NCBI GenBank assembly: GCA_965603475.1
Contig: CBFDDD010000013.1
Span: forward strand, 2,687-66,686
DNA: 64,000 nucleotides
Reading direction: 5' to 3'
From: an uncultured Myxococcales bacterium
GTDB lineage: Bacteria; Myxococcota_A; UBA9160; UBA4427
A model generated the notes under the pieces. The model had not been told where the DNA came from, did not search any database, and saw only the letters and a program-made list of their open reading frames with translations. The position numbers were made by a program, and so were the translations under genes. Shown here piece by piece: positions 28,354 to 59,729 of the stretch (positions within the stretch are counted from its first letter, which is position 1; each line of letters begins with the position of its first letter).

Positions 28354-29247
28354 CTAGTCCTCGAGCAGGGCGACTCGCTGCTCGAGATCCTCCAGGGATG
28401 CGATGTGATCCACTCCGCCTGGAAGTTTGATCGCGCTCGCGCCAGATCCACCGAGCCAGAGATGAATCGGGCCCGCCAACCCTTCGCGGAGGGCGAGAAT
28501 CGTACGCGTTGCCTGTGAAGTCGGGATCGTGACAAGACTCAGGCCTAGTGCCACTGCGCGGGTTTCCTCAACGGCACTCAGTAGATCGTCGACGGGCACC
28601 TCGCTTCCCAGATAAAGGGGGTTTGCTCCCGCGCCGAGCGCGGTCAGAGCCGCAATCAACCCACCGAGCTCGTGGCGCTCTCCGGTTGGCGTCGCGAATA
28701 CGACACGAGGACCCAGGATTGAGCTGGAGGTTTGTTGAAGCGCCGATCCGAGCAATGATCGAAGAATGCCTGTCGCAAGATGTTCTGCTGCAATGCCCAT
28801 CTCTCCATTGGCCCAGCGCACGCCGATCTCGTGCACGAGCGGAATTGCGATCTCGCGCGCAAACCTCGATGGACCCAGAGTGGACAGTTGAAAGGAGAGA
28901 AGCCTCTGGGAAGTCGCATCATCGAGTCGGTCGAGTGCAGCCAGGATCTCGTCGAGCTGGCCGGCCGGACGGGCTTCACCGACCGCCGACCTGCTTTTTA
29001 GCTCTGAGACGTCCAGCTTTGCGACTTTTCCGATCCGGTGACCTGCATCGACCGCGGCCTTCACCAGACGAAGCCGTTCAAGGTCGGCTGCGCTGTATCG
29101 CCGCGTCCCACCCGCCGTTCGAAGAGGCACGACGACTTCATATCGTCGTTCCCAAGCACGCAGTAGCTCCGGCGAAAGGCCGGTCAGCCGCGCGGCGGTG
29201 CGAAGTGGGTAGGTCAGCTCGAGTGGATCGCCTTCTGCTTCTGACAT
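28354..29247 (-). CDS. carH: CarH/LitR-type light-responsive regulator (MerR HTH plus cobalamin-binding domain), paralog 1
   Basis: MerR HTH YPLRTAARLTGLSPELLRAWERRYEVVVPLRTAGGTRRYS. Wx9EH motif in RWANGEMGIAAEHLATG. Lower-axial His motif in ATPTGERHELGG. Confidence 0.85.
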   Translation of the reverse strand: MSEAEGDPLELTYPLRTAARLTGLSPELLRAWERRYEVVVPLRTAGGTRRYSAADLERLRLVKAAVDAGHRIGKVAKLDVSELKSRSAVGEARPAGQLDEILAALDRLDDATSQRLLSFQLSTLGPSRFAREIAIPLVHEIGVRWANGEMGIAAEHLATGILRSLLGSALQQTSSSILGPRVVFATPTGERHELGGLIAALTALGAGANPLYLGSEVPVDDLLSAVEETRAVALGLSLVTIPTSQATRTILALREGLAGPIHLWLGGSGASAIKLPGGVDHIASLEDLEQRVALLED

Positions 29248-29392
29248 GGCCGTATTCTATATCGAATCACAGATCTGTCCATATTCAATCTCCTCAATCG
29301 TCCCCCCTTCAATTTACAAAAAATACTGTAAACCATTGTTTTATAACAATAAAAATGCACGATGAGTTGACAATCTGATCTCCAAAAAAAAT

Positions 29393-29440
29393 ATTGTATA
29401 GATAATATCTTGACAGAAACTCAAATCGAGAGGATAGTCC
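29393..29440. promoter_or_regulatory. bidirectional promoter/operator module, copy 1 (carH1 <-> SRPBCC operon)
   Basis: Plus strand: ATTGTATAGATAATATCTTGACA-N17-GATAGTCC, giving -35 TTGACA at 29410-15 and -10 GATAGT at 29433-38, then SD GGAGGA at 29455-60. Minus strand: TTGAGT (29424-19)-N18-TATACA (29400-395) pointing at carH1. An imperfect 21-bp palindrome TGTATAGATAATATCTTGACA spans both promoters. Confidence 0.55.
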
Positions 29441-29465: not shown

Positions 29466-30047
29466 ATGGCCAGATATGTAGACGCGATTGACCTGCCCAT
29501 CCCAATAGAGGAGGCATTCGACTATCTCGCTGATTTCAGCCGCACCGCTGAATGGGACCCAGGCGTCGAGGAGTCTCATCGTCTAACGAAGGGCAAGGTC
29601 CGTGTCGGCAGCCGGTTCAATGTGATCGTTTCGTTTTTCGGGCAGTCGATTCCGCTCGAGTACGAGATCACCGAATTCGATCGACCCTCGCGTTTGGTCC
29701 TGAGCGGAGGCGATTCCTCCGTGCGTTCAATCGACGAAATTACCTTCGTCGCAAGACCTGGCGGTACCCGCGTCACCTACGAGGCGAGAATCGATCTGGT
29801 CGGCATTCGCCGGATAGCAGATCCCCTGGTCGATATTCTGATGCAGCGAGTCGGTCGCCTCGCGGTGCGAGGTTTGCGAGAGCGACTGTCTGGGATTGGC
29901 CAAATGAACAATGAACCGGGAGCGCCTCCCGAGGATGCGATTACGTCGAGGGAAGGCAAGCGTCGATCTTCTACGCGAAGCGGAAAAAGCGCCAGAGCCG
30001 CAAAAAACTTCACTTCCAATCAACAAGAAAAAGGAGTTGCATCATGA
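29466..30047 (+). CDS. SRPBCC (polyketide cyclase/dehydrase-like) family protein
   Basis: MARYVDAIDLPIPIEEAFDYLADFSRTAEWDPGV... is typical of the family. Confidence 0.8.
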   Translation: MARYVDAIDLPIPIEEAFDYLADFSRTAEWDPGVEESHRLTKGKVRVGSRFNVIVSFFGQSIPLEYEITEFDRPSRLVLSGGDSSVRSIDEITFVARPGGTRVTYEARIDLVGIRRIADPLVDILMQRVGRLAVRGLRERLSGIGQMNNEPGAPPEDAITSREGKRRSSTRSGKSARAAKNFTSNQQEKGVAS

Positions 30048-30586: not shown

Positions 30587-32110
30587 ATGAGAATTGCAAA
30601 CAAGCTTTCACGCATTGAACTCTCTGATTGGACGGGGCAGCAAGAACGCCTTGGAGCATTCTGGCGAGAGCGTCCGGTCGTACTCGTATTCATTCGCCAC
30701 TTTGGTTGACTTTTTTGCCGAGAGCAAGTCGCGCAGTTGCGCGACCGAATGAACGAAATACGCGCCCAAGGAGCAGAGATCGTCATCGTCGGGAACGGAG
30801 CCGAAAATTTTGCGGCGGCCTTCCGAGAGGATTTCGACCTCGATTGTCCGATTCTGGTGGATCCGGATCTCCGCGCGTATCGCGCGGCCGGTCTTCGAAG
30901 AGGCCGGGTTGAACTGCTCTCCCCGAGGCTTCCTCTGAATGCGCTGCGCGCTCTTCGTGCAGGTTCTCGCCAGACGGGCGTTCAGGGTGACCCCTGGCAG
31001 CTCGGCGGATTGTTCGTGATTAGGCCTGATGGCGAGCTGATGTATCGACATGTTAGCCGCGAGGCGGGAGATCATCCGCCTGTGGACGAAATTCTCGAGG
31101 CGCTCGAAGAAGGGGCAGAGCCAATCTCCGATATGTCTGGTTCTTCCGCGGGTCAAGTCTGGCTGGGACGCGCGCTCAGTCGAGTCGTTGATCCATTCAT
31201 CGTTTCCTCCTTCGACCGAACTGGATTCCGAATTCATAGCTTGACCTTTGGGGCCGACGACCTGGATGTCGATCTCTCGGGAAGACGGTGTCTCGTTACC
31301 GGCGCGAACTCAGGGATCGGGTACGAGACAGCGTTGGCGATGGCGGACCTCGGCGCTGAGGTCGTGCTTCTCTGTCGCAATGCCGAGCGAGGTACCGAGG
31401 CGGTAGAGCGTGTGCGCCAGCAAACAGGAAATTCGCGGGTATCGCTCGAGATCGTCGACATGTCGGACATGGAATCGATTCGAGCGGCGGCGGTTCGGCT
31501 GAATTCAGCACCGATCGATATATTGGTGCACAATGCGGGCGTTCTGCCGGATGAGCGCGTCGAGAGCCGTGATGGGTTGGAACTCACACTGGCCACGCAT
31601 GTGGTCGGGCCATTCCTGCTCACGCGCCTACTGCGCGAGAGCCTGGAAAAGTCCTCCGATGGTCGGGTGATCTGGGTTTCGTCGGGTGGAATGTACTCTC
31701 GCCGATTGAATCTGGAGGATCCGAACTGGAAGGGTCGCGATTACGATGGTGTTCTCGCCTACGCCGAGACCAAGCGCGCCCAGGTGATCCTTGCTGAGCT
31801 CTGGGCTGAAGAACTGCGGGGGGGGCCCGTCGTCGTGAACGCGATGCATCCCGGTTGGGCTGACACGCCCGCCGTACAGGACTCGCTGCCTCGGTTCCAT
31901 AAAGTGACTCGTCATATCCTGCGTACGCCGGCCGAGGGGGCAGATACCGTTGTTTGGCTTGCGGCGTCCGAACAGGGGCGACGATCGACCGGTCGATTCT
32001 TCTTCGATCGAAGGGAGCGGAGAACCCATCTGATTCCCATCACGAGGGAATCCCAGAAGGATCGTCGAGCACTCTGGGCGCTTTGTGAAAATCTAAGCTC
32101 AAAGAGTTAG
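30587..32110 (+). CDS. peroxiredoxin-like (AhpC/TSA_2, PRXL2/SelU-like) domain with UxxC, fused to an SDR domain; predicted selenoprotein
   Basis: The frame is open from ATG 30587 to the stop at 32108-10 except for TGA 30707-09: ...RPVVLVFIRHFG[U]LFCREQVAQLRD... This aligns with the in-window paralog LLVFLRHFGCIFCREIVGDLRK. SDR part: CLVTGANSGIG, HNAG, YAETK. The track ORF starts only at TTG 30737. Confidence 0.75.
30728..30745 (+). promoter_or_regulatory. SECIS-like hairpin downstream of UGA 30707
   Basis: GTCGCGCA-GT-TGCGCGAC has perfect arms. A realistic fold is a 7-bp stem with an AGUU loop. It starts 18 nt after the UGA and carries GU at the apex. Confidence 0.55.
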
Positions 32111-34036: not shown

Positions 34037-34957
34037 TCAGTAGAATTTTTCGAGGATATCCGTTTGCGCAAGGGTGTGTGTCGGGTACCGGAAAGCGAAT
34101 CCGCAGCCAATCAGTCGTGTCGGCAAAATGTTGTAGCTCGAAAGAACCAGCGAAGAAGCTTCGCCGAGCGCGGCACGAACGAGTACGGAAGGAACCTTGA
34201 TGAAACTCGGACGCCTGAGGCTCCGAGCGAGCGTTCGACCGAACGTCTCGAGCGATACCGGCTCCGGACCGACCAGGTTGATCGGCCCGCTCAGTTCCCT
34301 GTGTTCGAGGACGAAACGCATCATATTGACAAGATCTTCTATGTGCACCCAGGGAATTTTCTGGCTGCCGTCTCCGATCGGTCCACCTAGACCAAGCCGA
34401 TAGATCGGCACGAGAGGCGCGAGCATTCCGCTTTCAGCCAGTACCAGACCGATCCTCAAGCAGGCCTGTCGCCGCTTCGTCGTCATTGCTGCAGCGGCTG
34501 CCTCTTCCCAGTCGGTGCACAGACGCGTCATGAAGGTGTTAGGTGTGGGTAGAGGCGAGCTTTCATCGAAAGGCTCATGCGTATCACCCGGATAAATCCC
34601 GATCGCACTGGCGCAGAAAAAGTCCGTTACGTCGTCGGTGAGAGAGGCGACGAGCTTCTGCGTGCTGAGGATGCGAGATTCGCGCAGCGCCTTCTTCTTG
34701 CGAGCCGTCCAACGCCCGCTGCCGATATTCTCGCCCATCAGGTGATACACTGCAGAGACACCCGCGAGTGCCGCGACTGGGAAGGGCTCATGCCGATAGT
34801 CCCAGTCGAAGCATTTGACAGAGTCGCCCAGGCTCTTCTGAGCACGAGCGCGATCTCGTGATGTGGCTACGACATGGTGGCCGTCTCTTTCGAGCGAAGC
34901 GACGAGTCGCTTGCCGAGCAACCCGGTCGCGCCGGTAATGAGGATTCGTTTCGACAT
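34037..34957 (-). CDS. TIGR01777-family (YfcH-like) NAD-dependent epimerase/dehydratase-fold protein
   Basis: From ATG 34957: MSKRILITGATGLLGKRLV...GRWTARKKKALRESRILST. The start shares one nucleotide with the upstream stop (TGATG). Confidence 0.85.
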   Translation of the reverse strand: MSKRILITGATGLLGKRLVASLERDGHHVVATSRDRARAQKSLGDSVKCFDWDYRHEPFPVAALAGVSAVYHLMGENIGSGRWTARKKKALRESRILSTQKLVASLTDDVTDFFCASAIGIYPGDTHEPFDESSPLPTPNTFMTRLCTDWEEAAAAAMTTKRRQACLRIGLVLAESGMLAPLVPIYRLGLGGPIGDGSQKIPWVHIEDLVNMMRFVLEHRELSGPINLVGPEPVSLETFGRTLARSLRRPSFIKVPSVLVRAALGEASSLVLSSYNILPTRLIGCGFAFRYPTHTLAQTDILEKFY

Positions 34958-35835
34958 CAAATAGTTCGGGGTGGGCGGGGAAAGAGCGCCGGCGTCGATC
35001 GCATGTAGGCGACGAAATTCGGATCTTCTCCCCACTTCTTTTTCGCGCGGGCTTCGAGTAGCGGGACACCGCTAATCCGTGTGAGCAGGAGATACACAAA
35101 AACAGGCGAGATCAGGGTCGCGAGCTGCCAGCCTGATAGCACGGGCACCGCAATCAAGGCGATTCCGATCCAGAGGGCGATCTCGCCGAAATAGTTGGGG
35201 TGCCGGGACCAGGCCCAGAGACCCGATCGGATGAAGCCGTCGCGATTGCCGGAGTCGGCCCGAAAGCGACGTTTCTGTTGATCCGCGGCCACTTCGATTG
35301 CGAAGCCCACAGCCCACAGAAGGCATCCAAGAGCCGCGAATATTCCCAATGGTCGAACTTCACTCGAAGTCATCGCCGCGAGCGCACAGGCAGCCGTCAG
35401 GAAGACCCATAGCGCCTGCAGTGTCCAGGCCATCAGGAATCGCGGCAGACTCATTTTGATCTGGTCGAAGCGTCGATCGGAACCGTCTCGATTGACACGA
35501 ATGAAGAGGAAACTCCCGAGGCGCAAGGCCCATACGGCGATCAGGCCTCCGAGGACGAGCGATCGGGGGTCCAGCTCTCCGCGCAGGCTAACGGCCAGAG
35601 CGACGAGGCTCATGTAGGTCATGCTGCCAGTGAGATCGTAATAGCGCTCGGTCTTGGAGGCGTAGGCGCCAACGAATGCCGACCAGTTGATCGCCAATGA
35701 ACAGAGGCCGCACAGAGCGAAGAGTGGAATACCCAAGGCTTGGATCCCATTGTGACTACCGGCCCAGGCGATCGCGGTTCCGAGCAGCAGAATGAGGGGG
35801 ATCGCGGCGGCGCTTTGCATTTCGAGTTTAGTCAT
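34957..35835 (-). CDS. DUF1295 (steroid 5-alpha-reductase / ICMT-like) membrane protein
   Basis: Polytopic protein with GLWAWSRHPNYFGEIALWIG near the C-terminus. Confidence 0.85.
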   Translation of the reverse strand: MTKLEMQSAAAIPLILLLGTAIAWAGSHNGIQALGIPLFALCGLCSLAINWSAFVGAYASKTERYYDLTGSMTYMSLVALAVSLRGELDPRSLVLGGLIAVWALRLGSFLFIRVNRDGSDRRFDQIKMSLPRFLMAWTLQALWVFLTAACALAAMTSSEVRPLGIFAALGCLLWAVGFAIEVAADQQKRRFRADSGNRDGFIRSGLWAWSRHPNYFGEIALWIGIALIAVPVLSGWQLATLISPVFVYLLLTRISGVPLLEARAKKKWGEDPNFVAYMRSTPALFPRPPRTI

Positions 35836-35844
35836 GGACGGTAT

Positions 35845-36378
35845 TTATCCTCGAGCCAGTGGATTTCTTGCTGGCATAGCTTCGTGAGGCGATACGGCGA
35901 GAGACCTCTCTTCGGCCGGCGAAGCCTGGGGCGTCAGCAACTCACGCACTCTGTTCTCCCGGTACTCGAAGATTCGATCTAGTCTCGAACGAATCAGGGG
36001 ATGTGCCATTCGGCCGAGCGGCTCGAATGGGAGCGCATAATGAACTTCGTCGCGGATGCGTGTCGACGCGTCACTGACAGATTCGAATCGATGCTCATGA
36101 ATCCACGTGTGAAAGGGACCTGAGATTTGTTCGTCGACGAATCGCCTTCCGGGCTCCCAGCAAGTTATTTCGGTCAACCAGGAGAAGGGGATTCCGAAGA
36201 GTCGGATGCGATACTCGATTCGTGTTCCGGCTTTCATCTCGATCGGCATAGCTGTCCGGATCTCGAAACGCAGCTCCGGTGGTGTGAGCGTCTCGAGGTT
36301 CGAAGCGTCGCAGAATAGGTCAAATGCATCCTCGAGCGAGCGCGCCAGCGTCATGTCCGTATAGAGAGCGTAGGTCAT
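35845..36378 (-). CDS. SRPBCC family protein
   Basis: ...FDLFCDASNLETLTPPELRFEI...GPFHTWIHEHRFE. ATGA overlap with the DCC gene stop. Confidence 0.8.
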   Translation of the reverse strand: MTYALYTDMTLARSLEDAFDLFCDASNLETLTPPELRFEIRTAMPIEMKAGTRIEYRIRLFGIPFSWLTEITCWEPGRRFVDEQISGPFHTWIHEHRFESVSDASTRIRDEVHYALPFEPLGRMAHPLIRSRLDRIFEYRENRVRELLTPQASPAEERSLAVSPHEAMPARNPLARG

Positions 36379-36815
36379 CGTGATTGATCAATCTCCTCGC
36401 TCTCGCAAGCAGGCTCGCCCGGGCCGATTTCACATCGTTTGGGCGCTCGGCCTGTGATTCGGAGACGGTATTTCGCAAAGACGAGATAGAGACGGTCGAG
36501 CAACCACCTAGCCCCGCGCCACTCTGACAGTGTGGAAATCCAAGTCACGCCCACGGCCGAGTAAGCGCGCGAGAATACCTCCACTCCTTCCACAACGGTC
36601 CCGTCGGGTAGGATTCCGTGGATCCGCGCTTCTACCATTGCCTGGTTGAGGCCGTACTTTTTTGGGTCGAATTCGACTGACGACAGATCTTCGAGTTCGA
36701 TTCTCCCTCGCCCGCGATCCATCCGCTCCAGAAATCGGGCCTCACGTGCACATAAGGGACACTCACCATCGACTAGTACGCGGATCTGCCAAGTCGGCTT
36801 TTCGATCGCGACCAT
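36375..36815 (-). CDS. DCC1-like thiol-disulfide oxidoreductase (DUF393)
   Basis: From ATG 36815: MVAIEKPTWQIRVLVDGECPLCAREARFLERMD, with the CxxC at the family position. It begins 1 nt after the sigma gene stop. Confidence 0.8.
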   Translation of the reverse strand: MVAIEKPTWQIRVLVDGECPLCAREARFLERMDRGRGRIELEDLSSVEFDPKKYGLNQAMVEARIHGILPDGTVVEGVEVFSRAYSAVGVTWISTLSEWRGARWLLDRLYLVFAKYRLRITGRAPKRCEIGPGEPACESEEIDQSR

Positions 36816-36816
36816 C

Positions 36817-38079
36817 CTAGAGGCAGCCGACTTCGAAGGCGATGGACTGCGCCACCTGGTTCTCACGAAGCTGCTCGAGCGCATGATGCTCGATTTGTCG
36901 GACTCGCTCTCGGCTTACGCCCAACTCACACCCAATATCGTTGAGCGAGCGCGGAGCATCTCCCCGCAATCCAAATCGCGCTTCGATGACTCGCTGTTCG
37001 CGCTCGGTCAGCGTCGGAATGATCTTCCGGATGCATTTATTGAGGACTCGCTCATCAATCGATGAGATGATTTCGTCCCCGTCATCTTTGACGAGCGTTT
37101 CTTCGACAGTCAGGTTTTCTGTCCGACCGACCAACGCTTGTGTCGAAACCTCAGCCGAGAGGCTGCGCCGAAGATCGTCCGATTGGCTTGGATCAATTTC
37201 GAGTCTTTCTATCAAATCCATCGGCGTCAGTTCAGCTGCGCTCGTGGCTCGTCCCGACTGCTCGATCTGCCGGAGCTTTCGCTTCTGGTCGATCAGTGGA
37301 CTCGGGATGCGAACCGTTCGCGAGTCGGTCGCGACTGAACGAACCAAAGACTGTTCGATCCACCAGATCGCATAGGTCGAAAATTTGTAACCACGGCGAT
37401 AGTCGAACTTCTCGACAGCACGCATCAATCCCAGATTGCCTTCCTGGATCAAGTCCAGGAAAGGGATATTCTGATTGCGATAGTTCTTGGCACAGCGAAT
37501 CACAAGTCGAAGATTGTGGTTGATGAAGAGGTTTTTGCTGTCTGTGAGCTGGGCGCGATGTTCGATCGCGAGGAGGAGAGATTTGCTGGAGTCCTTGTCT
37601 CTCATTAGTTCTTCGGAATCCTCCAGAGTCTCGAGGATCTCCAGAAGAAGAGGCAGCGCAAATTCGGCAGCGAGTACACTCTGGGCCAGCGCTTTGCGCA
37701 ATTCACGTCGATCCGTGGCTTTCTTGGATCTAGAGCGATCGAGCGCCAAAAGTGATGATTCGATCCCCACGAACGCCTCATCGATCAGCTTGTTCACATC
37801 CCTACTAGACCCGTCTCGATGCCATCGGGACAACGCGCCCGTCACTCGTCCCTGCGCTCGTTTTTCGCTCCAGCGCCCGAGGAGGATCCTCGCGGCCTCC
37901 GGAATCTCTGCAAGAGATTCTCGGAGCGACGCTTCCGCGGCTTCCATTCGCTTGAACAGCCTGAGTTGTTCCTCGGAATCCAGTACGGACATGTCAGCGA
38001 TGTCAGTGAGGTAGTCCTGAAGAACATCTCTTGAAGATCTGTCGCTCGCGGCCGCTTCAGATCCGGTTCGATATCCCAT
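36817..38079 (-). CDS. RpoD-like sigma-70 family sigma factor (regions 1.2, 2, 3 and 4 plus a non-conserved insert)
   Basis: NLRLVIRCAKNYRNQNIPFLDLIQEGNLGLMRAVEKFDYRRGYKFSTYAIWWIEQS is region 2, and LGVSRERVRQIEHHALEQLR is region 4.2. ATG 38079 is preceded by GGAG at a 7-nt spacing. The track start TTG 38109 is less likely. Confidence 0.9.
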   Translation of the reverse strand: MGYRTGSEAAASDRSSRDVLQDYLTDIADMSVLDSEEQLRLFKRMEAAEASLRESLAEIPEAARILLGRWSEKRAQGRVTGALSRWHRDGSSRDVNKLIDEAFVGIESSLLALDRSRSKKATDRRELRKALAQSVLAAEFALPLLLEILETLEDSEELMRDKDSSKSLLLAIEHRAQLTDSKNLFINHNLRLVIRCAKNYRNQNIPFLDLIQEGNLGLMRAVEKFDYRRGYKFSTYAIWWIEQSLVRSVATDSRTVRIPSPLIDQKRKLRQIEQSGRATSAAELTPMDLIERLEIDPSQSDDLRRSLSAEVSTQALVGRTENLTVEETLVKDDGDEIISSIDERVLNKCIRKIIPTLTEREQRVIEARFGLRGDAPRSLNDIGCELGVSRERVRQIEHHALEQLRENQVAQSIAFEVGCL

Positions 38080-38119: not shown

Positions 38120-38167
38120 GGACTATCGTCGGCAAGTTGACATTTGTAAAGGTTTTATCTATACAAT
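38120..38167. promoter_or_regulatory. bidirectional promoter/operator module, copy 2 (sigma factor <-> carH2)
   Basis: Minus strand reads ATTGTATAGATAAAACCTTTACA-N17-GATAGTCC, with -35 at 38150-45 and -10 at 38127-22, pointing at the sigma gene. Plus strand reads TTGACA (38137-42)-N17-TATACA (38160-65), pointing at carH2. The architecture is block-for-block the same as 29393-29440. Confidence 0.55.
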
Positions 38168-38223
38168 GTTCTCCTAAATGAAAAATATTTAATCCCTATG
38201 GGGACATTCCGTCATTTTTTCTA

Positions 38224-39189
38224 TTGGCAGAGATGGTCTGGCGAATGAAACAGTTCGAGAAAGCAAGGGACACTTCGGGTTATCCGGTCCGAGTGGCCGC
38301 GAGAATGACCGGTCTGAAGCCCGAATTGCTTCGTGCCTGGGAGATTCGATACCGCGCGGTGATACCAAGCCGAACCCAGGGCGGGTCTCGACGCTACTCC
38401 GGGGAGGACCTCGATCGGCTGATGCTTCTCCGAGACATCGTGGAATCTGGCCGTCGAATCGGAAAAATCGCTCATCTGAGCGTTGATGAACTCCAAGTCC
38501 TCCTTGTCGAGTCGAGGAGCCAGTATCCCAATGCAATGGAGCTAATCATCGCAGTCCTTCAGAGGCTCGATGGATTCAAAGCGCGACGCTTGCTGACCGA
38601 CGAACTGACGAGGCTTGGTTCGCTTGAATTCGTAACGAACCTTGTCCTTCCGCTTCTGTTCGAGATCGGTCGGCGCTGGGAGCGCGGAGACCTCACTATC
38701 TCGGCCGAACATCTCGCGTCGGGCGTCCTTCGGTCCATATTGATGACTCTCGTCGACGCCGAAAACGAGAATCGAGGGTCACCAAAGATCGTTTTCGCAA
38801 CGCCAAGCGGAGAGCCTCATGATCTTGGAACGCTCGCAGCGTCGATCGTCGCGAATCGGGCCGGAACCGATTTGGTTTTTCTAGGAGCAGATGTCCCCGC
38901 CAAAGATCTCGTCGATTGCGTCGTCCGCTCAAATGCATCGGCCCTCGTACTGGGAGTCGTGACATTGCCGAAAGAGAGCGCTGAGCGAATTCTCCGAGAA
39001 GTCCGAAAGGAACTGCCTGAAAAGATCGGCGTTCTAATCGGAGGTGCCGGAATCCAGGGCCTTGCACCTATCAAAGGCATTGATCGAATAGACAACCTCG
39101 GTCAGCTCGAGGCGCAACTCACAAACTTGGCACTCGGCGGGATCGCCAGTCCAATGGCACGGGAACAGAGTGGCTCGAAATGGACGTGA
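38224..39189 (+). CDS. carH: CarH/LitR-type light-responsive regulator (MerR HTH plus cobalamin-binding domain), paralog 2
   Basis: YPVRVAARMTGLKPELLRAWEIRYRAVIPSRTQGGSRRYS. Wx9EH motif in RWERGDLTISAEHLASG. ExH motif in ATPSGEPHDLG. The start is ambiguous: TTG 38224, ATG 38233 or ATG 38245. Confidence 0.85.
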   Translation: MAEMVWRMKQFEKARDTSGYPVRVAARMTGLKPELLRAWEIRYRAVIPSRTQGGSRRYSGEDLDRLMLLRDIVESGRRIGKIAHLSVDELQVLLVESRSQYPNAMELIIAVLQRLDGFKARRLLTDELTRLGSLEFVTNLVLPLLFEIGRRWERGDLTISAEHLASGVLRSILMTLVDAENENRGSPKIVFATPSGEPHDLGTLAASIVANRAGTDLVFLGADVPAKDLVDCVVRSNASALVLGVVTLPKESAERILREVRKELPEKIGVLIGGAGIQGLAPIKGIDRIDNLGQLEAQLTNLALGGIASPMAREQSGSKWT

Positions 39190-39199
39190 GATACCGATT

Positions 39200-40171
39200 A
39201 TGAAGGCCGCCATCGTTGGAGCAGGGCTCGCAGGACTCCGGCTCGCAAATCGCTTGCGCGACACTGGTGCGGAGGTCCGAGTCTTCGAAAAGGCGCGTGG
39301 CCCGTCGGGGAGGCTCGCGACTCGGAGAACGGTCGAGGGACAGTTCGACCATGGAGCACAGTATTTTACCGCTCGAACTCCGAGTTTCGTCGACCAAGTC
39401 GACGACTGGTGCCGTCGAGGCATAGTCGAAGAATGGAAAGGGACGATTGCGTCCCTCCAGAACGGCGTAGTGAGCACGGAGAAAGCACCGCCGGTTCGCT
39501 ATGTCGGCGTGCCTCGCATGAGCGCGATTGCGCGTGACCTGGCAGCAGAGATTCCTGCGGAATTTTCTGTACGCGTCGAATCTGTTCGCAGGGAGGGGGC
39601 GTTATGGACTCTCGTGACAGACGGTGGAGTGGATCGCCGAGGCTTCGACGCCGTTTTCATTGCCGCGCCAGCACCTCAGGCGGTACCCCTGCTCGCGGCA
39701 AGTCCGTCGCTCGCTCGGCGCGCGAGTGAAGTACGTATGCTGTCTTGCCATGCGTTGATGCTGAGGTTCGAATCGGATGTCGATGTCGAATTCGATGCTG
39801 CGTTCGTCCGATCTTCTCCGCTTGCGTGGATCGCTCGGAATGGGTCCAAGCCGGGTCGAGAAGACGAACCGACTTGGGTTCTGCATTCGACGGCTGCGTG
39901 GAGCGAGTCCCATCTGGATCTCGGGCCAGAAGAGGTTCGAGACGTTCTCTTGGCAGGTCTCGGGGCGGCGTTGGGAAAATCACTTTCGGCGGTTCGCTTT
40001 TTCGCGGTTCACCGTTGGCTCTACGCACGTCCGACTGAGTTCTTTGCTGAAACACCGGTCTGGGATCGAGAATTGGGACTCGGGGCCTGCGGCGATTGGA
40101 CTCATGGAGATCGCGTTGAGGACGCCTATGCGAGTGCCGAGGCGTTGGCCGACGCGATTGGAGTTCCTTGA
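39200..40171 (+). CDS. NAD(P)/FAD-dependent oxidoreductase (renalase-like)
   Basis: From ATG 39200: MKAAIVGAGLAGLRLANRLRDTGAEVRVFEKARGPSGR (dinucleotide-binding fold). Confidence 0.8.
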   Translation: MKAAIVGAGLAGLRLANRLRDTGAEVRVFEKARGPSGRLATRRTVEGQFDHGAQYFTARTPSFVDQVDDWCRRGIVEEWKGTIASLQNGVVSTEKAPPVRYVGVPRMSAIARDLAAEIPAEFSVRVESVRREGALWTLVTDGGVDRRGFDAVFIAAPAPQAVPLLAASPSLARRASEVRMLSCHALMLRFESDVDVEFDAAFVRSSPLAWIARNGSKPGREDEPTWVLHSTAAWSESHLDLGPEEVRDVLLAGLGAALGKSLSAVRFFAVHRWLYARPTEFFAETPVWDRELGLGACGDWTHGDRVEDAYASAEALADAIGVP

Positions 40172-40189: not shown

Positions 40190-41650
40190 ATGACACGCGG
40201 AATTCACTGGTTCCGAAACGACTTGCGACTTCACGACAATCTCGCATTGACGGCGCTTGCCGAGCGGAGCACGGCTTGGCTTCCGATATTCGTGATCGAC
40301 CCGGCCATGCTCGCGCGGTCAGGCCGGGATTCTCCTCGTGCCCGCTTTCTTTTCGACTGTCTCGCACGACTAGAGGGTGATTTGTTGGCGAAAGGGTTTG
40401 CGCTTCAGATTCTTGAAGGAAAGCCGGAGAGATTGATTCCTGAACTGATGGCTAAAACCGGTGCAACCCTGGTTTCGTGGAACAACGCGTCAACTCCATT
40501 GGGTCAGCGTCGAGACCTGAAGGTTGCCAATGCAATTTCTCGAGCCGGAGGGCAGGCCATCCAGCTCGACGATCACACGGTATTTGGCCCGGACGAGATC
40601 AAAACCAAGGATGGCGGTCACTATCGCGTTTACACGCCCTATCGAAATGAATGGTGGAAGACGTGGGAGAGAGAGCCCCGACCTTCTTCATCGACGGCAC
40701 GGTACCCAAAGGCTAACATCCCAAAAATCGCGATCTCCCGAGAACGACATTCGACGTTCTTTTCCGAGAACGGGAGCAAGATTCGCCTACCGAGAGGCGG
40801 AGAAGAGAGCGCAAAGCGCCGGCTCCGAAACTTCCTGTCTGGGCCGGCGAGTCGATATCATCTCGACCGAGACCGCCCAGATATCGATGGAACCTCGCGC
40901 CTATCTCCCTACCTCCGCTTCGGCGCGATATCGGCGAGGAGATGTTTTACAGAGGGCCTTCGAAAGATCGAGTCCGATCCGCGCGCACGGCCCGGAATCT
41001 CGAAGTGGCTCGACGAGCTGATCTGGCGTGAGTTCTACAATGCGGTGCTCATCAACAACCCCCATGTGCTCTCCGGGGCTTTCAAGCCGGAGTACGACGA
41101 GCTCAACTGGAAAGGGAGCGCGGCGCAATTTGCGGCCTGGTGTGAGGGGCGGACTGGCTATCCCTTCGTGGATGCTGGGATGAGGCAGCTGCGTTCCACG
41201 GGTTGGATGCACAATCGAGTGCGTATGGTCGTCGCAAGTTTTCTGACGAAGGATTTGCTCGTTGACTGGCGTCGTGGTGAACGCTTTTTCTTTGATTCGC
41301 TTGTCGATGGCGACCCCGCCTCGAACAACGGTGGATGGCAGTGGTCGGCATCGACCGGGACCGACGCCCAGCCCTATTTCAGGATCTTCAATCCGGTCGT
41401 TCAAGGGAAGAAATGGGACCCAGATGGAAAATACATCCGTCGATGGGTCCCTGAACTGCGGAAAGTAGATCCCAAGTGGATTCATGCGCCCTGGCAGGAG
41501 CCGAGCTCTCGCGTTCAATACATAAGGCCCATTGTCGATCATGGCGTACAGCGGCGATTGGCCTTGGATGAGTTCAAAAGGGTCCGGGCGATCGGTGGAG
41601 GACCGCGTTTGCTGGTCCCAGAAACAGGAGCGAAGTCAGCCAATGAGTAA
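40190..41650 (+). CDS. phrB: deoxyribodipyrimidine (CPD) photolyase
   Basis: MTRGIHWFRNDLRLHDNLAL...SRLSPYLRFGAIS...GYPFVDAGMRQL..TGWMHNRVRMVVASFL...GGWQWSASTGTDAQPYFRIFNP. Confidence 0.95.
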   Translation: MTRGIHWFRNDLRLHDNLALTALAERSTAWLPIFVIDPAMLARSGRDSPRARFLFDCLARLEGDLLAKGFALQILEGKPERLIPELMAKTGATLVSWNNASTPLGQRRDLKVANAISRAGGQAIQLDDHTVFGPDEIKTKDGGHYRVYTPYRNEWWKTWEREPRPSSSTARYPKANIPKIAISRERHSTFFSENGSKIRLPRGGEESAKRRLRNFLSGPASRYHLDRDRPDIDGTSRLSPYLRFGAISARRCFTEGLRKIESDPRARPGISKWLDELIWREFYNAVLINNPHVLSGAFKPEYDELNWKGSAAQFAAWCEGRTGYPFVDAGMRQLRSTGWMHNRVRMVVASFLTKDLLVDWRRGERFFFDSLVDGDPASNNGGWQWSASTGTDAQPYFRIFNPVVQGKKWDPDGKYIRRWVPELRKVDPKWIHAPWQEPSSRVQYIRPIVDHGVQRRLALDEFKRVRAIGGGPRLLVPETGAKSANE

Positions 41651-42647
41651 TCTATCCGTGCGAGATAGACCAATCTGGATGGAGTGGCATGATACAGCCA
41701 TGCCGATCCGAGTCGGAGTCTCGGCCTGTCTACTCGGGGGAGAAGTTCGTTTCGACGGAGGTCACAAGCGAGATCGCTACCTAACGGATGTGCTCGGCGA
41801 GAACGTGACTTGGCTCCCGGTCTGCCCGGAGATCGAAGTCGGTATGGGGATTCCAAGGCCAGTGATTCAGCTTAGGCAGGGTGAGATCGGAGAACGGCTC
41901 GTCGAGAGAGAATCGGGCGAGGACTGGACGGATCGGATGCAGAAGTACGCAGATGCGCGGACATCCGAGCTTTCCCGCATCGGTCTCGACGGTTTCGTCC
42001 TCAAAAAAGATTCGCCTTCCTGTGGGATGGCTCGGGTTCGCGTCTACGGAAGACCGGGAGCAATGCCGTCAAAAGGAGGCGTCGGTCATTTCGCGCAGGC
42101 GCTGAATCGCGGAATGGCAGATCTTCCCATCGAGGAAGAGGGAAGACTCCGTGACGCGGTTCTGCGCGAACGATTTATCGAGGCGGTGTTCAGCCACAAT
42201 CGGTGGCGAGTTCTCGTATCGAGAGGCTTGACGCGAGGTCGGTTGGTCGCTTTCCACGAAGCGCACAAGATGCTGATTCTCGCCCACGACCAGCATATCT
42301 ACCGCGAACTGGGTCGCCTCGTGGCGAGTTTTGGTCGTGTCCCGGACGAGGAAGTGTACCCGGCCTACCATGCGCTCTTCGTCGCTGCATTTCGGAAGCC
42401 CACAACGATCTCGCGACATGTCAACGTGCTCGAGCATCTCTTCGGACACGTCAAGAAGAAGATCAACAGCGCCGAGAAAAGAGAAATCTCCGCAGCGATC
42501 GAAGACTACCGGGACGCTCGAAGTCCTCTCGTCGTCGTGATCTCGCTCTTGCGATTTCTCGTTGCGGCCCACGACGTCAAGTATGTGCGAGGGCAGCTCT
42601 ATCTAGAGCCTCACCCTCGCGAGCTGATGCTGAGAAATCATGTCTGA
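41643..42647 (+). CDS. ybgA: DUF523 plus DUF1722 protein (YbgA-like)
   Basis: IRVGVSACLLGGEVRFDGGHK is the DUF523 part and the helical C-terminal half is DUF1722. The start is uncertain, at ATG 41643 or a downstream Met. Confidence 0.85.
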   Translation: MSNLSVRDRPIWMEWHDTAMPIRVGVSACLLGGEVRFDGGHKRDRYLTDVLGENVTWLPVCPEIEVGMGIPRPVIQLRQGEIGERLVERESGEDWTDRMQKYADARTSELSRIGLDGFVLKKDSPSCGMARVRVYGRPGAMPSKGGVGHFAQALNRGMADLPIEEEGRLRDAVLRERFIEAVFSHNRWRVLVSRGLTRGRLVAFHEAHKMLILAHDQHIYRELGRLVASFGRVPDEEVYPAYHALFVAAFRKPTTISRHVNVLEHLFGHVKKKINSAEKREISAAIEDYRDARSPLVVVISLLRFLVAAHDVKYVRGQLYLEPHPRELMLRNHV

Positions 42648-59159: not shown

Positions 59160-59729
59160 TCAATCCACCGTCCAATACTGCCGTAGCGCCCAGGACGCCT
59201 GGTAGCTGAGCATGGCGATCGCCATGGTGCCGTGAAAACGCGGATTCCGGGTAACCATCGCGACAATGCACAAGATCGGATGAGCCACCCGCGCGATGTG
59301 GTACTCCATGCCCAGGGCCAGCCAGTAGTCCACACCCTTGGCCAACGAGTCGACTACATCGGTGAGACCAATGACCCCCAACAAACCGAAGAGCCAGAGT
59401 CTTCGCGAATAGAAGTAGTCACGATACCCGTCGTAACCCTCTAGGCTGTCCGGAAACAGAATCGAAGCCGTCAGAAACATGAGAACGGCGTACAGCACGA
59501 CGAACATGTATAGCTGGAACGTCCACAACCCGACGTCGCCCAGACTAAATTCCCACCACCACCAGAACACCAACGAAAGGAACACGTAACCAACCCAGCA
59601 CAGATGCACCCAGTAGACAGGCTCTGTATCCGGGTGCTGGATCAATCGCGCAACGCCGCGAAGCAGGTGGGTGATGCCCAGACCGATGATGATCGAGGTG
59701 AGTACAGCGACGTATTCGAAGATGCCCAT
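59160..59729 (-). CDS. hypothetical polytopic membrane protein
   Basis: 189 aa and about 6 TM segments (MGIFEYVAVLTSIIIGLGITHLL...). No family recognised. Confidence 0.6.
   Translation of the reverse strand: MGIFEYVAVLTSIIIGLGITHLLRGVARLIQHPDTEPVYWVHLCWVGYVFLSLVFWWWWEFSLGDVGLWTFQLYMFVVLYAVLMFLTASILFPDSLEGYDGYRDYFYSRRLWLFGLLGVIGLTDVVDSLAKGVDYWLALGMEYHIARVAHPILCIVAMVTRNPRFHGTMAIAMLSYQASWALRQYWTVD

What the first reader, a model, noticed from the sequence alone, without database searches (positions are those of the whole stretch)
29393..29440. Near-identical back-to-back promoter/operator module present at both carH loci (copy 1; copy 2 at 38120-38167)
Read in the direction away from each carH gene, the two AT-rich intergenic regions align block for block. 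Copy 1 (+, 29393-29440) is ATTGTATAGATAATATCTTGACA-gaaactcaaatcgagag-GATAGTCC. Copy 2 (-, 38167-38120) is ATTGTATAGATAAAACCTTTACA-aatgtcaacttgccgac-GATAGTCC. The first 13 nt and the last 8 nt are identical. The -35-like hexamers are TTGACA and TTTACA, both spacers are exactly 17 nt, and the spacers themselves are not conserved (5 of 17). On the opposite strand the same DNA gives TTGAGT-N18-TATACA (copy 1) and TTGACA-N17-TATACA (copy 2), pointing at carH1 and carH2. Each module is therefore a pair of overlapping divergent promoters sharing a 21-bp imperfect palindrome, TGTATAGATAATATCTTGACA and TGTATAGATAAAACCTTTACA. That is what one expects for a single operator gating both a carH gene and its partner transcript, the SRPBCC...Sec-Prx/SDR operon in one case and the sigma-factor operon in the other. 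Both downstream genes have good SD sequences at the expected distance.
Basis: seen in the sequence. Interest (0 to 1): 0.75.

Follow-up and report, generated by a model that had tools for sequence, protein, structure and literature searches.

The report
Conserved palindromic CarH operator-promoter pair
The two look-alike stretches are real copies of a conserved 23-bp palindromic binding site for vitamin-B12 light-sensor repressors (CarH) that overlaps the promoter of a neighbouring light-stress operon; this is an expected kind of switch, though its half-sites are inverted rather than tandem.

Summary
Both copies read exactly as described, and the similarity exceeds chance. Both neighbouring regulators are CarH-type (MerR HTH, Wx9EH, ExHxxG).

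A position matrix built only from other genomes finds exactly these two strong sites in the 64 kb window. About 60 of 75 CarH loci retrieved by protein homology carry the same element upstream of carH, and in 59 of those 60 the TTGACA half points away from carH.

The core is TTGTAyAGAT-www-ATCTTGACAA. It consists of two canonical 11-bp CarH recognition units (nAnnTnnACAn) in inverted orientation. The right unit holds the -35 of an outward sigma70-type promoter. Its -10 lies 17 bp further on, with A at position 2 and T at position 6 each in 89% of 53 sites.

The outward operons encode light and oxidative-stress genes: SRPBCC and Prx-SDR at copy 1, and an RpoD-like sigma, DCC1 and DUF1295 at copy 2.

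carH1 has its own conserved leaderless-type promoter about 125 bp away (29281-29254). carH2 probably uses TATACA as a -35.

Verdict: a real CarH operator-promoter module and a new member of a known kind. Its inverted-unit architecture differs from the characterised tandem-repeat operators.

The parts
29394..29416 (+). Copy 1 core: 23-bp palindromic operator TTGTATAGATAATATCTTGACAG, made of two inverted 11-bp CarH units around one central base pair
   Evidence: 37.8 bits with a matrix that excludes the window; units TATCTATACAA and TATCTTGACAG fit nAnnTnnACAn
29410..29415 (+). -35 hexamer TTGACA of the outward promoter, inside the right operator unit
   Evidence: per-base frequencies at the six -35 positions (16-21) are 81-100% across 53 sites
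29433..29438 (+). -10 hexamer GATAGT, 17 bp after the -35
   Evidence: columns 40 (A, 89%) and 44 (T, 89%); spacer peak at 17
29466..30047 (+). First gene of the outward operon at copy 1 (SRPBCC/polyketide-cyclase-like). It is followed by two small ORFs and the Prx-SDR gene (30587-32110, with an in-frame TGA)
   Evidence: synteny SRPBCC-orf78-PrxSDR next to the element in L135, L104, L107, L119, L123, L127, L130, L144, L154 and L165
28354..29247 (-). carH1, an AdoCbl-type CarH regulator
29254..29281 (-). carH1's own promoter, TGGACA-16-TAGAAT, ending 6 nt before the ATG (leaderless-type). The -35 is itself a CarH half-site. In most orthologues the -10 region is a second half-site (TGTATAGAnT); here it has degenerated to GATATAGAAT
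   Evidence: alignment of 27 orthologues; counts
38144..38166 (-). Copy 2 core: 23-bp palindromic operator TTGTATAGATAAAACCTTTACAA
   Evidence: (33.8 bits)
38145..38150 (-). -35 hexamer TTTACA of the outward (sigma-operon) promoter
38122..38127 (-). -10 hexamer GATAGT, 17 bp after the -35
36817..38079 (-). RpoD/SigA-like sigma factor, first gene of the outward operon at copy 2. It is followed by DCC1 (36375-36884), SRPBCC (35845-36378), DUF1295 (34957-35835) and an epimerase/DUF1731 gene (34037-35035)
   Evidence: synteny in L100, L101, L155, L140 and L131
38245..39189 (+). carH2, an AdoCbl-type CarH regulator. Its operon continues into an FAD oxidoreductase (39170-40171), a photolyase (40190-41650) and a ybgA-like gene (41532-42647)
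   Evidence: synteny in L099, L100, L101 and L155
38160..38189 (+). Putative carH2 promoter (inferred). The left operator unit TATACA (38160-38165) serves as -35, and AAATAT or AATATT (38183-38189) as -10 at a 17-18 bp spacer
   Evidence: Orthologue comparison (L004: TATACA-17-TATAAT; L101: TGTACA-17-AAAGAT; L099: a TATAAT just upstream of the hairpin, contig cut before the half-site). The same geometry with a leaderless start occurs in L117, L132 and L163. Not supported clade-wide
38192..38205 (+). Conserved GC palindrome/hairpin ATCCCTATGGGGAC between the putative carH2 promoter and the carH2 start; role unknown
   Evidence: conserved in L099, L100, L004, L101, L109 and L140

Best explanation
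Each copy is a CarH operator fused to a sigma70-type promoter. The 23-bp core consists of two canonical 11-bp CarH recognition units (nAnnTnnACAn) in inverted orientation around one central base pair. The unit distal to carH contains the near-consensus -35 (TTGACA or TTTACA) of a promoter that fires away from carH, and its -10 (GATAGT) lies 17 bp downstream.

In the dark, AdoCbl-loaded CarH1 and/or CarH2 would occupy the core and block RNA polymerase from the -35. This would silence two operons: SRPBCC...Prx-SDR at copy 1, and the RpoD-like sigma with DCC1, SRPBCC and DUF1295 at copy 2. Light photolyses the cofactor, the repressor oligomer falls apart, and both operons are transcribed. The two paralogs have nearly identical recognition helices and wings, so either could bind both sites.

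Shown here: the sequence element, its specific and oriented association with carH genes in many genomes, the promoter geometry, the fit of the units to the CarH unit, and the CarH signature motifs in both proteins.

Inferred: actual binding, repression rather than activation, light release, which paralog binds where, and the oligomeric state on DNA.

carH1 itself is transcribed from a separate leaderless-type promoter at 29281-29254. carH2 is probably transcribed from a divergent promoter that uses the other operator unit as its -35.
For: Proteins:
- Both have MerR HTH + B12-binding_2 + B12-binding domains.
- The best NCBIfam hit for both is CarH.
- Both align along their full length to T. thermophilus CarH 3WHP/5C8D (E 5e-32 and 1e-28), with Wx9EH and ExHxxG conserved. 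PMC8156234 states that these two motifs define CarH homologs.

Element:
- It is beyond chance in the window.
- It is present at the orthologous position in L004, which was found independently by protein.
- About 60 of 75 loci retrieved by CarH protein similarity have a site scoring above 18 bits upstream of carH, where the 99.99th percentile of background is 1.3. The TTGACA half faces away from carH in 59 of the 60 (L164 is the exception). The distance to carH is specific to each subgroup.
- In 80 cross-phylum CarH loci, every hit of at least 18 bits lies immediately upstream of carH, and none falls in the other roughly 400 kb.

Symmetry and promoter:
- The 53-site profile shows two-fold symmetric conservation, plus A (89%) and T (89%) at -10 positions 2 and 6, exactly 17 bp from TTGACA.

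Units:
- Both halves match the unit derived from 130 tandem-repeat units in 42 other loci (A2, C4, T5, G/T7, ACA, A11). They also match the published nAnnTnnACAn (PMC8156234) and nnnnTnnACAn with the -35 inside a repeat (PMC9304148).

Regulon:
- Outward genes are photolyase, Prx, DUF1295, SRPBCC, DCC1, ybgA and a sigma factor. Second sites sit in front of such genes in L112/113, L120/125, L122 and L146.
Against: - There is no experimental binding or transcription-start data for this lineage.
- All class I CarH operators I could read about are tandem direct repeats with an 11-bp period (PMC9304148, PMC8156234). The window copies have no tandem pair. The 15-bp centre-to-centre spacing of the hexamers does not obviously fit the solved TtCarH-DNA geometry.
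- The palindrome is centred near -40 relative to the predicted start, which is also a classical position for class II activators.
- Another MerR/LitR-type protein in the genome could be the true binder.
- The matrix was seeded by a regex (TGT..A-N9-T..ACA), so part of the core conservation is imposed by construction. The flank columns, the strand bias and the position bias are not.
Confidence: 0.8

Rival explanations
1. Activator site rather than repressor site. CarH, or another MerR/LitR-type protein, binds the palindrome centred near -40 and recruits RNA polymerase in a class II-like manner, by analogy with a proposed activator role of LitR at the litS promoter in Streptomyces (my recollection, not checked here).
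For: With -35 at core positions 16-21 and -10 at 39-44, the palindrome centre is about 40 bp upstream of the predicted start. One outward operon starts with a sigma factor, as in the LitR-LitS pair (PMC11519972).
Against: The -35 is near-consensus TTGACA (per-base frequencies 81-100%) with an optimal 17-bp spacer, so the promoter should not need an activator. The classical MerR activation geometry (operator inside a 19-20 bp spacer) is absent. Characterised CarH/LitR proteins whose sites overlap a -35 act as repressors (PMC9304148, PMC9758184).
Confidence: 0.08
2. The element is only a shared strong promoter with an AT-rich upstream (UP-like) element. It would be conserved for polymerase binding, perhaps by the locus-encoded RpoD-like sigma, with no repressor involved.
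For: TTGACA-17-nAnnnT is a plain sigma70-type promoter. The regions are AT-rich. A group 1/2-like sigma is encoded at copy 2.
Against: The upstream half is conserved base for base (T1 96%, G2 89%, T3 100%, A6 92%, A8 91%, T9 87%) and mirrors the -35 half, which an UP element would not do. Both halves match the CarH unit. The element is tied to carH genes, and no hits occur elsewhere in about 400 kb. The same two half-site types recur in a different arrangement at the carH1 promoter.
Confidence: 0.05
3. The resemblance of the two copies reflects a recent duplication of one carH locus (shared ancestry of the DNA), not a shared functional constraint.
For: The two carH genes are paralogs lying 9 kb apart. 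13 + 8 nt are identical between the copies.
Against: The proteins are only 43% identical. The spacer is unconserved (5 of 17), and the flanks do not align. Each locus has its own orthologue series with its own synteny and its own element-to-carH distance: about 126-148 bp for CarH1 types and about 80 bp for CarH2 types.
Confidence: 0.03

Closest known systems
Class I CarH/LitR operators (T. thermophilus, B. megaterium, Myxococcales)
   Same: The regulator type is the same (MerR wHTH plus an AdoCbl domain with Wx9EH and ExHxxG). The 11-bp recognition unit is the same (nAnnTnnACAn). One unit contains the -35 TTGACA of a sigma-A/sigma70 promoter. carH lies next to its target operon. Operators serving two divergent promoters are described for Sorangiineae and Nannocystineae (PMC9304148, PMC8156234).
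   Different: Characterised operators are 3-4 tandem direct repeats or pseudo-repeats with an 11-bp period. Here there are exactly two units in inverted orientation (TGT..A-N9-T..ACA) and no tandem partner in either window copy. The targets are photolyase, Prx, SRPBCC and sigma genes rather than carotenoid genes.
Class II LitR sites of Pseudomonas (PplR1/PmlR2): T(G/A)TACA-N12-TGTA(C/T)A
   Same: The hexamers are the same type (T[A/G]TACA), one site overlaps a -35, and the regulon is similar (photolyase, fatty-acid modification, unknowns) (PMC9758184). The carH1-proximal element in orthologues (TGGACA-N12-TGTATA) has exactly this geometry.
   Different: Class II LitR lacks B12 binding and is controlled by a LOV antirepressor. 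The main element here has N9 spacing with the units facing the other way. In the window's own carH1-proximal element only the first hexamer is intact.
Streptomyces LitR-LitS cascade
   Same: A B12-type LitR/CarH regulator sits next to a sigma factor gene, giving a light-triggered transcriptional cascade (PMC11519972).
   Different: LitS is an ECF sigma. Here the sigma is a 420-aa RpoD/SigA-like protein, transcribed divergently from carH2 from an operator-overlapped sigma70-type promoter.
PhrR, a B12-dependent light regulator of Proteobacteria (Romine et al. 2017, PNAS; recalled from memory, PMC5320969 not held)
   Same: As I recall it, this is a CarH-like regulator whose comparative-genomics regulon includes photolyase and stress or cofactor genes, with a palindromic predicted motif.
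   Different: I could not check this. I could not read the motif or its spacing, so I cannot tell whether the N9 inverted element is already described there.

Membership tests
CarH/LitR class I (AdoCbl photoreceptor repressor): the two regulators | N-terminal MerR-type winged-helix DNA-binding domain | tested here: met
   PF13411 at residues 13-78 (CarH1) and at 20-85 of the TTG-start ORF (CarH2). Both align to the TtCarH DNA-binding domain.
CarH/LitR class I (AdoCbl photoreceptor repressor): the two regulators | Wx9EH motif capping the adenosyl group | tested here: met
   CarH1 has RWANGEMGIAAEHLA and CarH2 has RWERGDLTISAEHLA, aligned to TtCarH AWHRGEIGVAEEHLA.
CarH/LitR class I (AdoCbl photoreceptor repressor): the two regulators | E/DxHxxG motif with the lower axial His ligand, in a Rossmann B12-binding domain | tested here: met
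   CarH1 has GERHELG and CarH2 has GEPHDLG, aligned to TtCarH GERHEIG. PF02310 and PF02607 hits are present.
CarH/LitR class I (AdoCbl photoreceptor repressor): the two regulators | AdoCbl-dependent oligomerisation and light-reversible DNA binding | not testable with these tools
   Needs purified protein.
Canonical CarH operator | 11-bp recognition unit nAnnTnnACAn | tested here: met
   Window units are TATCTATACAA, TATCTTGACAG and AACCTTTACAA. The clade profile has A2 81-87%, T5 92-100% and ACA 89-100%, and matches 130 tandem units from 42 other loci.
Canonical CarH operator | Three or four units (or pseudo-units) in tandem direct orientation with an 11-bp period | tested here: not met
   The two units are inverted (TGT..A-N9-T..ACA). 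Neither window copy has T..ACA at offset -10 or any N5 tandem pair. An extra in-phase unit exists in only 8 of 53 related sites.
Canonical CarH operator | Overlap with the -35 and/or -10 of the regulated promoter | tested here: met
   The -35 lies inside the right unit.
Class II LitR site | T(G/A)TACA-N12-TGTA(C/T)A | tested here: not met
   The main element has N9 spacing and the opposite unit order. The N12 geometry is found only at the carH1-proximal element of orthologues (20 of 68 loci), and is incomplete in the window (TGGACA-N12-GATATA).
Sigma70-type promoter (outward) | -35 close to TTGACA, 16-18 bp spacer, -10 with A at position 2 and T at position 6 | tested here: met
   TTGACA-17-GATAGT and TTTACA-17-GATAGT. 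Conserved geometry across 53 sites.
Sigma70-type promoter (outward) | Mapped transcription start | not testable with these tools
   Needs 5'-RACE or dRNA-seq.
MerR-type activated promoter | Palindromic operator inside an over-long (19-20 bp) -35/-10 spacer | tested here: not met
   The spacer is 17 bp, and the operator lies over and upstream of the -35.

The most novel reading that the evidence does not exclude
A whole clade of B12-dependent CarH photoreceptors, mostly from uncultured sediment and marine delta-proteobacteria-like organisms, may read its canonical 11-bp unit as a two-unit palindrome instead of tandem repeats. That would imply a DNA-binding-domain arrangement on DNA different from the solved TtCarH tetramer: either a head-to-head pair as in classical MerR proteins, or two domains from different dimers.

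In this reading the clade also wires two paralogous sensors with the same DNA specificity into a cascade. That cascade switches on an RpoD-like (non-ECF) sigma factor and a selenocysteine peroxiredoxin in light.
Probability: 0.3. Interest if true: 0.55.

Novelty: new member of a known kind. Interest (0 to 1): 0.4.

Why it matters
The result gives a well-defined, comparatively validated cis-element: a matrix from 53 sites with essentially no false positives in about 400 kb. That element can be used to read light regulons of uncultured bacteria directly from metagenomes.

It shows that CarH control in this clade is aimed at photolyase, peroxiredoxin, lipid-protection genes and a sigma factor, rather than at carotenoids.

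It also offers a compact 23-bp palindromic operator fused to a near-consensus promoter. Together with an AdoCbl CarH, this could serve as a small optogenetic part.

If the inverted-unit geometry reflects a distinct binding mode, it would extend the known plasticity of CarH-DNA recognition.

Tried and rejected
1. An exact-pattern scan of genome contigs for TTGTATAGATAANNNCTTNACA gave 18 hits. My arithmetic gives about 17 expected by chance (596 Gb, both strands, 18 fixed bases). Only L004 and L016 lie next to carH-like genes. L012 (Phycisphaerae) has no good -10 and no visible carH and was dropped.

2. A single-protein search with CarH2 in genome contigs found only L004.

3. A third N9 palindrome in the window at 59507 lies inside an ORF and scores below 8 bits with the matrix, so I treat it as chance. 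The 10.4-bit hit at 34326 lies inside the epimerase gene and is at the level of shuffles.

4. Neither gives a sharp peak. The symmetric model holds only in subgroups.

5. TACAAT, shifted 2 nt from TATACA, would be a good -10 in both window copies. It needs 19-20 bp spacers, and it is TACAAA in most relatives (13 of 53 sites are -10-like).

6. The Rfam scan of the window found nothing, so no riboswitch or known RNA explains the region.

7. I tried to read Jost et al. 2015 under a guessed PMC id and the PhrR paper (PMC5320969). Neither is held, and a PhrR text search was unproductive.

8. The conserved hairpin at 38192-38205 has an invariant stem, so a covariation test would be uninformative and I did not run one.

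Full report
**Observation**

The best local alignment of the two intergenic regions, each read away from its carH gene, scores 40. In 2000 shuffles the score was 17.0 +/- 2.5 with a maximum of 31. The 12-mer TTGTATAGATAA, allowing up to two mismatches, occurs nowhere else in the 64 kb.

**Genes**

The two regulators are carH1 (28354-29247, minus strand) and carH2 (38245-39189, plus strand). I place the carH2 start at the ATG rather than the mechanical TTG at 38224, which fits the orthologue alignment.
- Both carry MerR_1, B12-binding_2 and B12-binding domains.
- Both have NCBIfam CarH as their best family hit.
- They are 43% identical to each other.
- Both align over their full length to T. 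thermophilus CarH (3WHP, 5C8D/E/F; E 5e-32 and 1e-28). The Wx9EH and ExHxxG motifs are conserved, and the literature uses these two motifs to define CarH homologs (PMC8156234).
- The recognition helix and wing are almost identical in the two paralogs (PELLRAWExRY...RTxGGxRRY).

Outward of copy 1 lie an SRPBCC gene, two small ORFs and a peroxiredoxin-SDR fusion. Outward of copy 2 lie a 420-aa RpoD/SigA-like sigma factor that is not an ECF sigma, then DCC1, a second SRPBCC gene, DUF1295 and an epimerase. carH2 is followed by an FAD oxidoreductase, a photolyase and a ybgA-like gene. This is a light and photo-oxidative stress gene set.

**Is the element functional? Comparative evidence**
- The closest genome relative, L004 (a Deltaproteobacteria MAG, CarH 74% identical, found by protein), has TTGTATAGATAATATCTTTACA-N17-GATGCT at the same position, facing a sigma-like gene start.
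- A clade-specific protein alignment retrieved 80 metagenomic loci. I seeded a matrix with regex hits and scored it against the rest of each locus. About 60 of 75 loci with enough upstream DNA have a site scoring above 18 bits, where the 99.99th percentile of background is 1.3.
- The TTGACA half faces away from carH in 59 of those 60 sites (L164 is the exception).
- The distance to carH depends on the subgroup: about 126-148 bp for CarH1-type loci, about 80 bp for CarH2-type loci, and about 28-40 bp for a third group.
- A matrix rebuilt without the window's own sites scores the window copies at 37.8 and 33.8 bits and finds nothing else above noise in the window.
- In 80 further cross-phylum CarH loci, every hit of at least 18 bits lies directly upstream of carH, and none falls in the other roughly 400 kb.
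- Synteny is conserved separately for each paralog: PrxSDR-orf78-SRPBCC <- element -> carH1-type, and DCC1-sigma <- element -> carH2-type-FADox-photolyase.
- Extra sites in related loci sit in front of orf78, sigma and similar genes.

**Anatomy**

The profile of 53 distinct sites gives TTGTAyAGAT-www-ATCTTGACAA.
- Conservation is two-fold symmetric: T1/A21, G2/C20, T3/A19, A6/T16, G7/C15, A8/T14 and T9/A13.
- The exception is the two positions that the consensus unit leaves free. On the right they are fixed as TG by the -35 requirement. On the left they are (A/G)T.
- Each half is therefore one 11-bp unit fitting nAnnTnnACAn, the published CarH repeat (PMC8156234; nnnnTnnACAn in PMC9304148).
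- The halves also match the unit I derived independently from 130 tandem units in 42 other loci.
- Exactly 17 bp beyond TTGACA there is a hexamer whose position 2 is A in 89% of sites and whose position 6 is T in 89%. The -10-like signal peaks sharply at spacer 17 (26 of 53 sites, against 0-9 at other spacings).
- The promoter scan reports both outward promoters. GGAGG or GGAG lies 8-9 nt before each ATG, by direct reading.

**How this differs from known operators**

Characterised class I CarH operators are three or four tandem direct repeats with an 11-bp period, one of which contains the -35 (PMC9304148, PMC8156234). In my cross-phylum set that tandem arrangement is indeed the most enriched one upstream of carH: 69 hits in 23 kb against 17 in 402 kb. 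The inverted N9 arrangement is also enriched, with 12 hits against 9, and it dominates the window's clade. The window copies have only the two inverted units. In relatives, extra units appear at offsets -10 (11-bp phase) and +34 (N12 geometry, overlapping the -10) in 5-8 of 53 sites. Footprinted class II LitR sites are T(G/A)TACA-N12-TGTA(C/T)A (PMC9758184), which use the same hexamers at a different spacing.

**The carH-facing promoters**

- TATACA lacks T at position 6 and is not called by the scan.
- The proposed -35 hexamers are not conserved (L004 has ATGGCA, L101 has TCAAGT). Only 5-7 of 53 sites have a -35-like hexamer at any one spacing.

Instead, 27 CarH1 orthologues share a strongly conserved element abutting the start codon: ATnTGGACA-N12-TGTATAGAnT, then about 7 nt, then ATG/GTG. 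In the window this is TGGACA-16-TAGAAT at 29281-29254, with the ATG at 29247. That is a leaderless-type promoter. Its -35, and in most orthologues its -10 region, are themselves CarH half-sites (20 of 68 loci by strict regex). In the window and in L135 the second half-site has lost its TGT. Copy 1 is therefore an operator plus one outward promoter, and carH1 is transcribed from about 125 bp away.

For carH2, the orthologues fit a symmetric model in which the carH-facing unit T(A/G)TACA is a -35 and an A2/T6 hexamer lies 17-18 bp downstream. L004 has TATAAT at a 17-bp spacer, L101 has AAAGAT, and the window has AAATAT or AATATT. L099 also has a TATAAT just upstream of the hairpin, but its contig ends before the half-site, so its spacing cannot be measured. 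This hexamer sits just before a conserved TCCC..GGGA hairpin. The same geometry with a leaderless start occurs in L117, L132 and L163. In the third group an extra TGTACA unit 11 bp from the core serves as the carH -35. One operator shared by two divergent promoters is therefore real in parts of the clade and plausible at copy 2, but it is not shown there.

**Mechanism (inferred from the family)**

AdoCbl-CarH occupies the palindrome in the dark and occludes the -35. Light releases it. Repression rather than activation is favoured because the promoter is near-consensus with an optimal spacer, and because characterised relatives repress. A class II-type activator role, with the site centred near -40, cannot be excluded without experiments. 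Because the paralogs share their DNA-reading residues, cross-regulation of both sites is likely. Putting an RpoD-like sigma under the operator suggests a second regulatory tier, analogous to LitR-LitS (PMC11519972) but with a non-ECF sigma.

**Novelty**

A CarH operator overlapping the -35 of a divergent light-inducible operon is the expected design, so I rate this a new member of a known kind. Three features stand out: the inverted two-unit architecture, the non-carotenoid regulon, and the RpoD-like sigma target. From memory, a palindromic motif for a B12-dependent regulator (PhrR) was proposed by comparative genomics (Romine et al. 2017). I could not read that paper, which limits any novelty claim.

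Noticed in passing
window 29254-29281 (-), ATG at 29247: carH1 has its own conserved promoter, TGGACA-16-TAGAAT, ending 6 nt before the start codon (leaderless-type). In most of 27 orthologues it reads ATnTGGACA-N12-TGTATAGAnT, that is, two CarH half-sites in the class II LitR geometry. The window and L135 have lost the TGT of the second half.
   Followed up: yes
window 38192-38205 (+): A short GC palindrome/hairpin, ATCCCTATGGGGAC, lies between the operator and the carH2 start. It is conserved in all CarH2-type orthologues (L099, L100, L004, L101, L109, L140). The stem is invariant, so covariation cannot be assessed. It could be a 5' stem-loop of the carH2 mRNA or a second protein-binding site.
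   Followed up: partly
window 30587-32110 (+), TGA at 30707-30709: The peroxiredoxin-SDR fusion in the copy-1 operon has an in-frame TGA at the first position of its redox motif (HFG*LFCRE, i.e. UxxC). This is consistent with selenocysteine. I did not look for a SECIS element or for sel genes.
   Followed up: partly
window 36817-38079 (-): The sigma factor under copy 2 is RpoD/SigA-like (regions 2-4, with a roughly 170-aa N-terminal extension) and is not an ECF sigma. Its position next to the element is conserved in L100, L101, L155, L140 and L131, and it lies downstream of carH behind a second site in L122.
   Followed up: partly
related loci, offsets -10 and +34 from core position 1 (e.g. 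L105, L135, L118, L139; L104, L127, L130): Some relatives add a third half-site. It sits either 11 bp from the carH-side unit (direct phase) or 18 bp beyond the -35 unit, overlapping the outward -10 (N12 geometry). The number of units per operator therefore varies from 2 to 3 or 4 within the clade.
   Followed up: partly
window 29313-29332 and 29335-29350 (+): There are further small palindromes in the carH1 intergenic region: TTTACA-N8-TGTAAA and ATTGTTTTATAACAAT. The second is weakly conserved in orthologue alignments (TTGTTTTATA...ACA). Their role is unknown.
   Followed up: no
core positions 24-26 of the outward spacer in many related sites: A recurrent ATG (A24 58%, G26 42%) occurs just after TTGACAAn in the outward spacer across the clade. 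It is unexplained, and it is absent from copy 1 of the window.
   Followed up: no
window 40190-42647 (+): The photolyase is followed by a 2-thiouracil desulfurase/DUF1722 (ybgA-like) gene, the same gene pair as the E. coli ybgA-phr pair (from memory). In a subgroup of related loci (L139, L156, L159, L161, L162) ybgA is the gene driven by the outward promoter.
   Followed up: no
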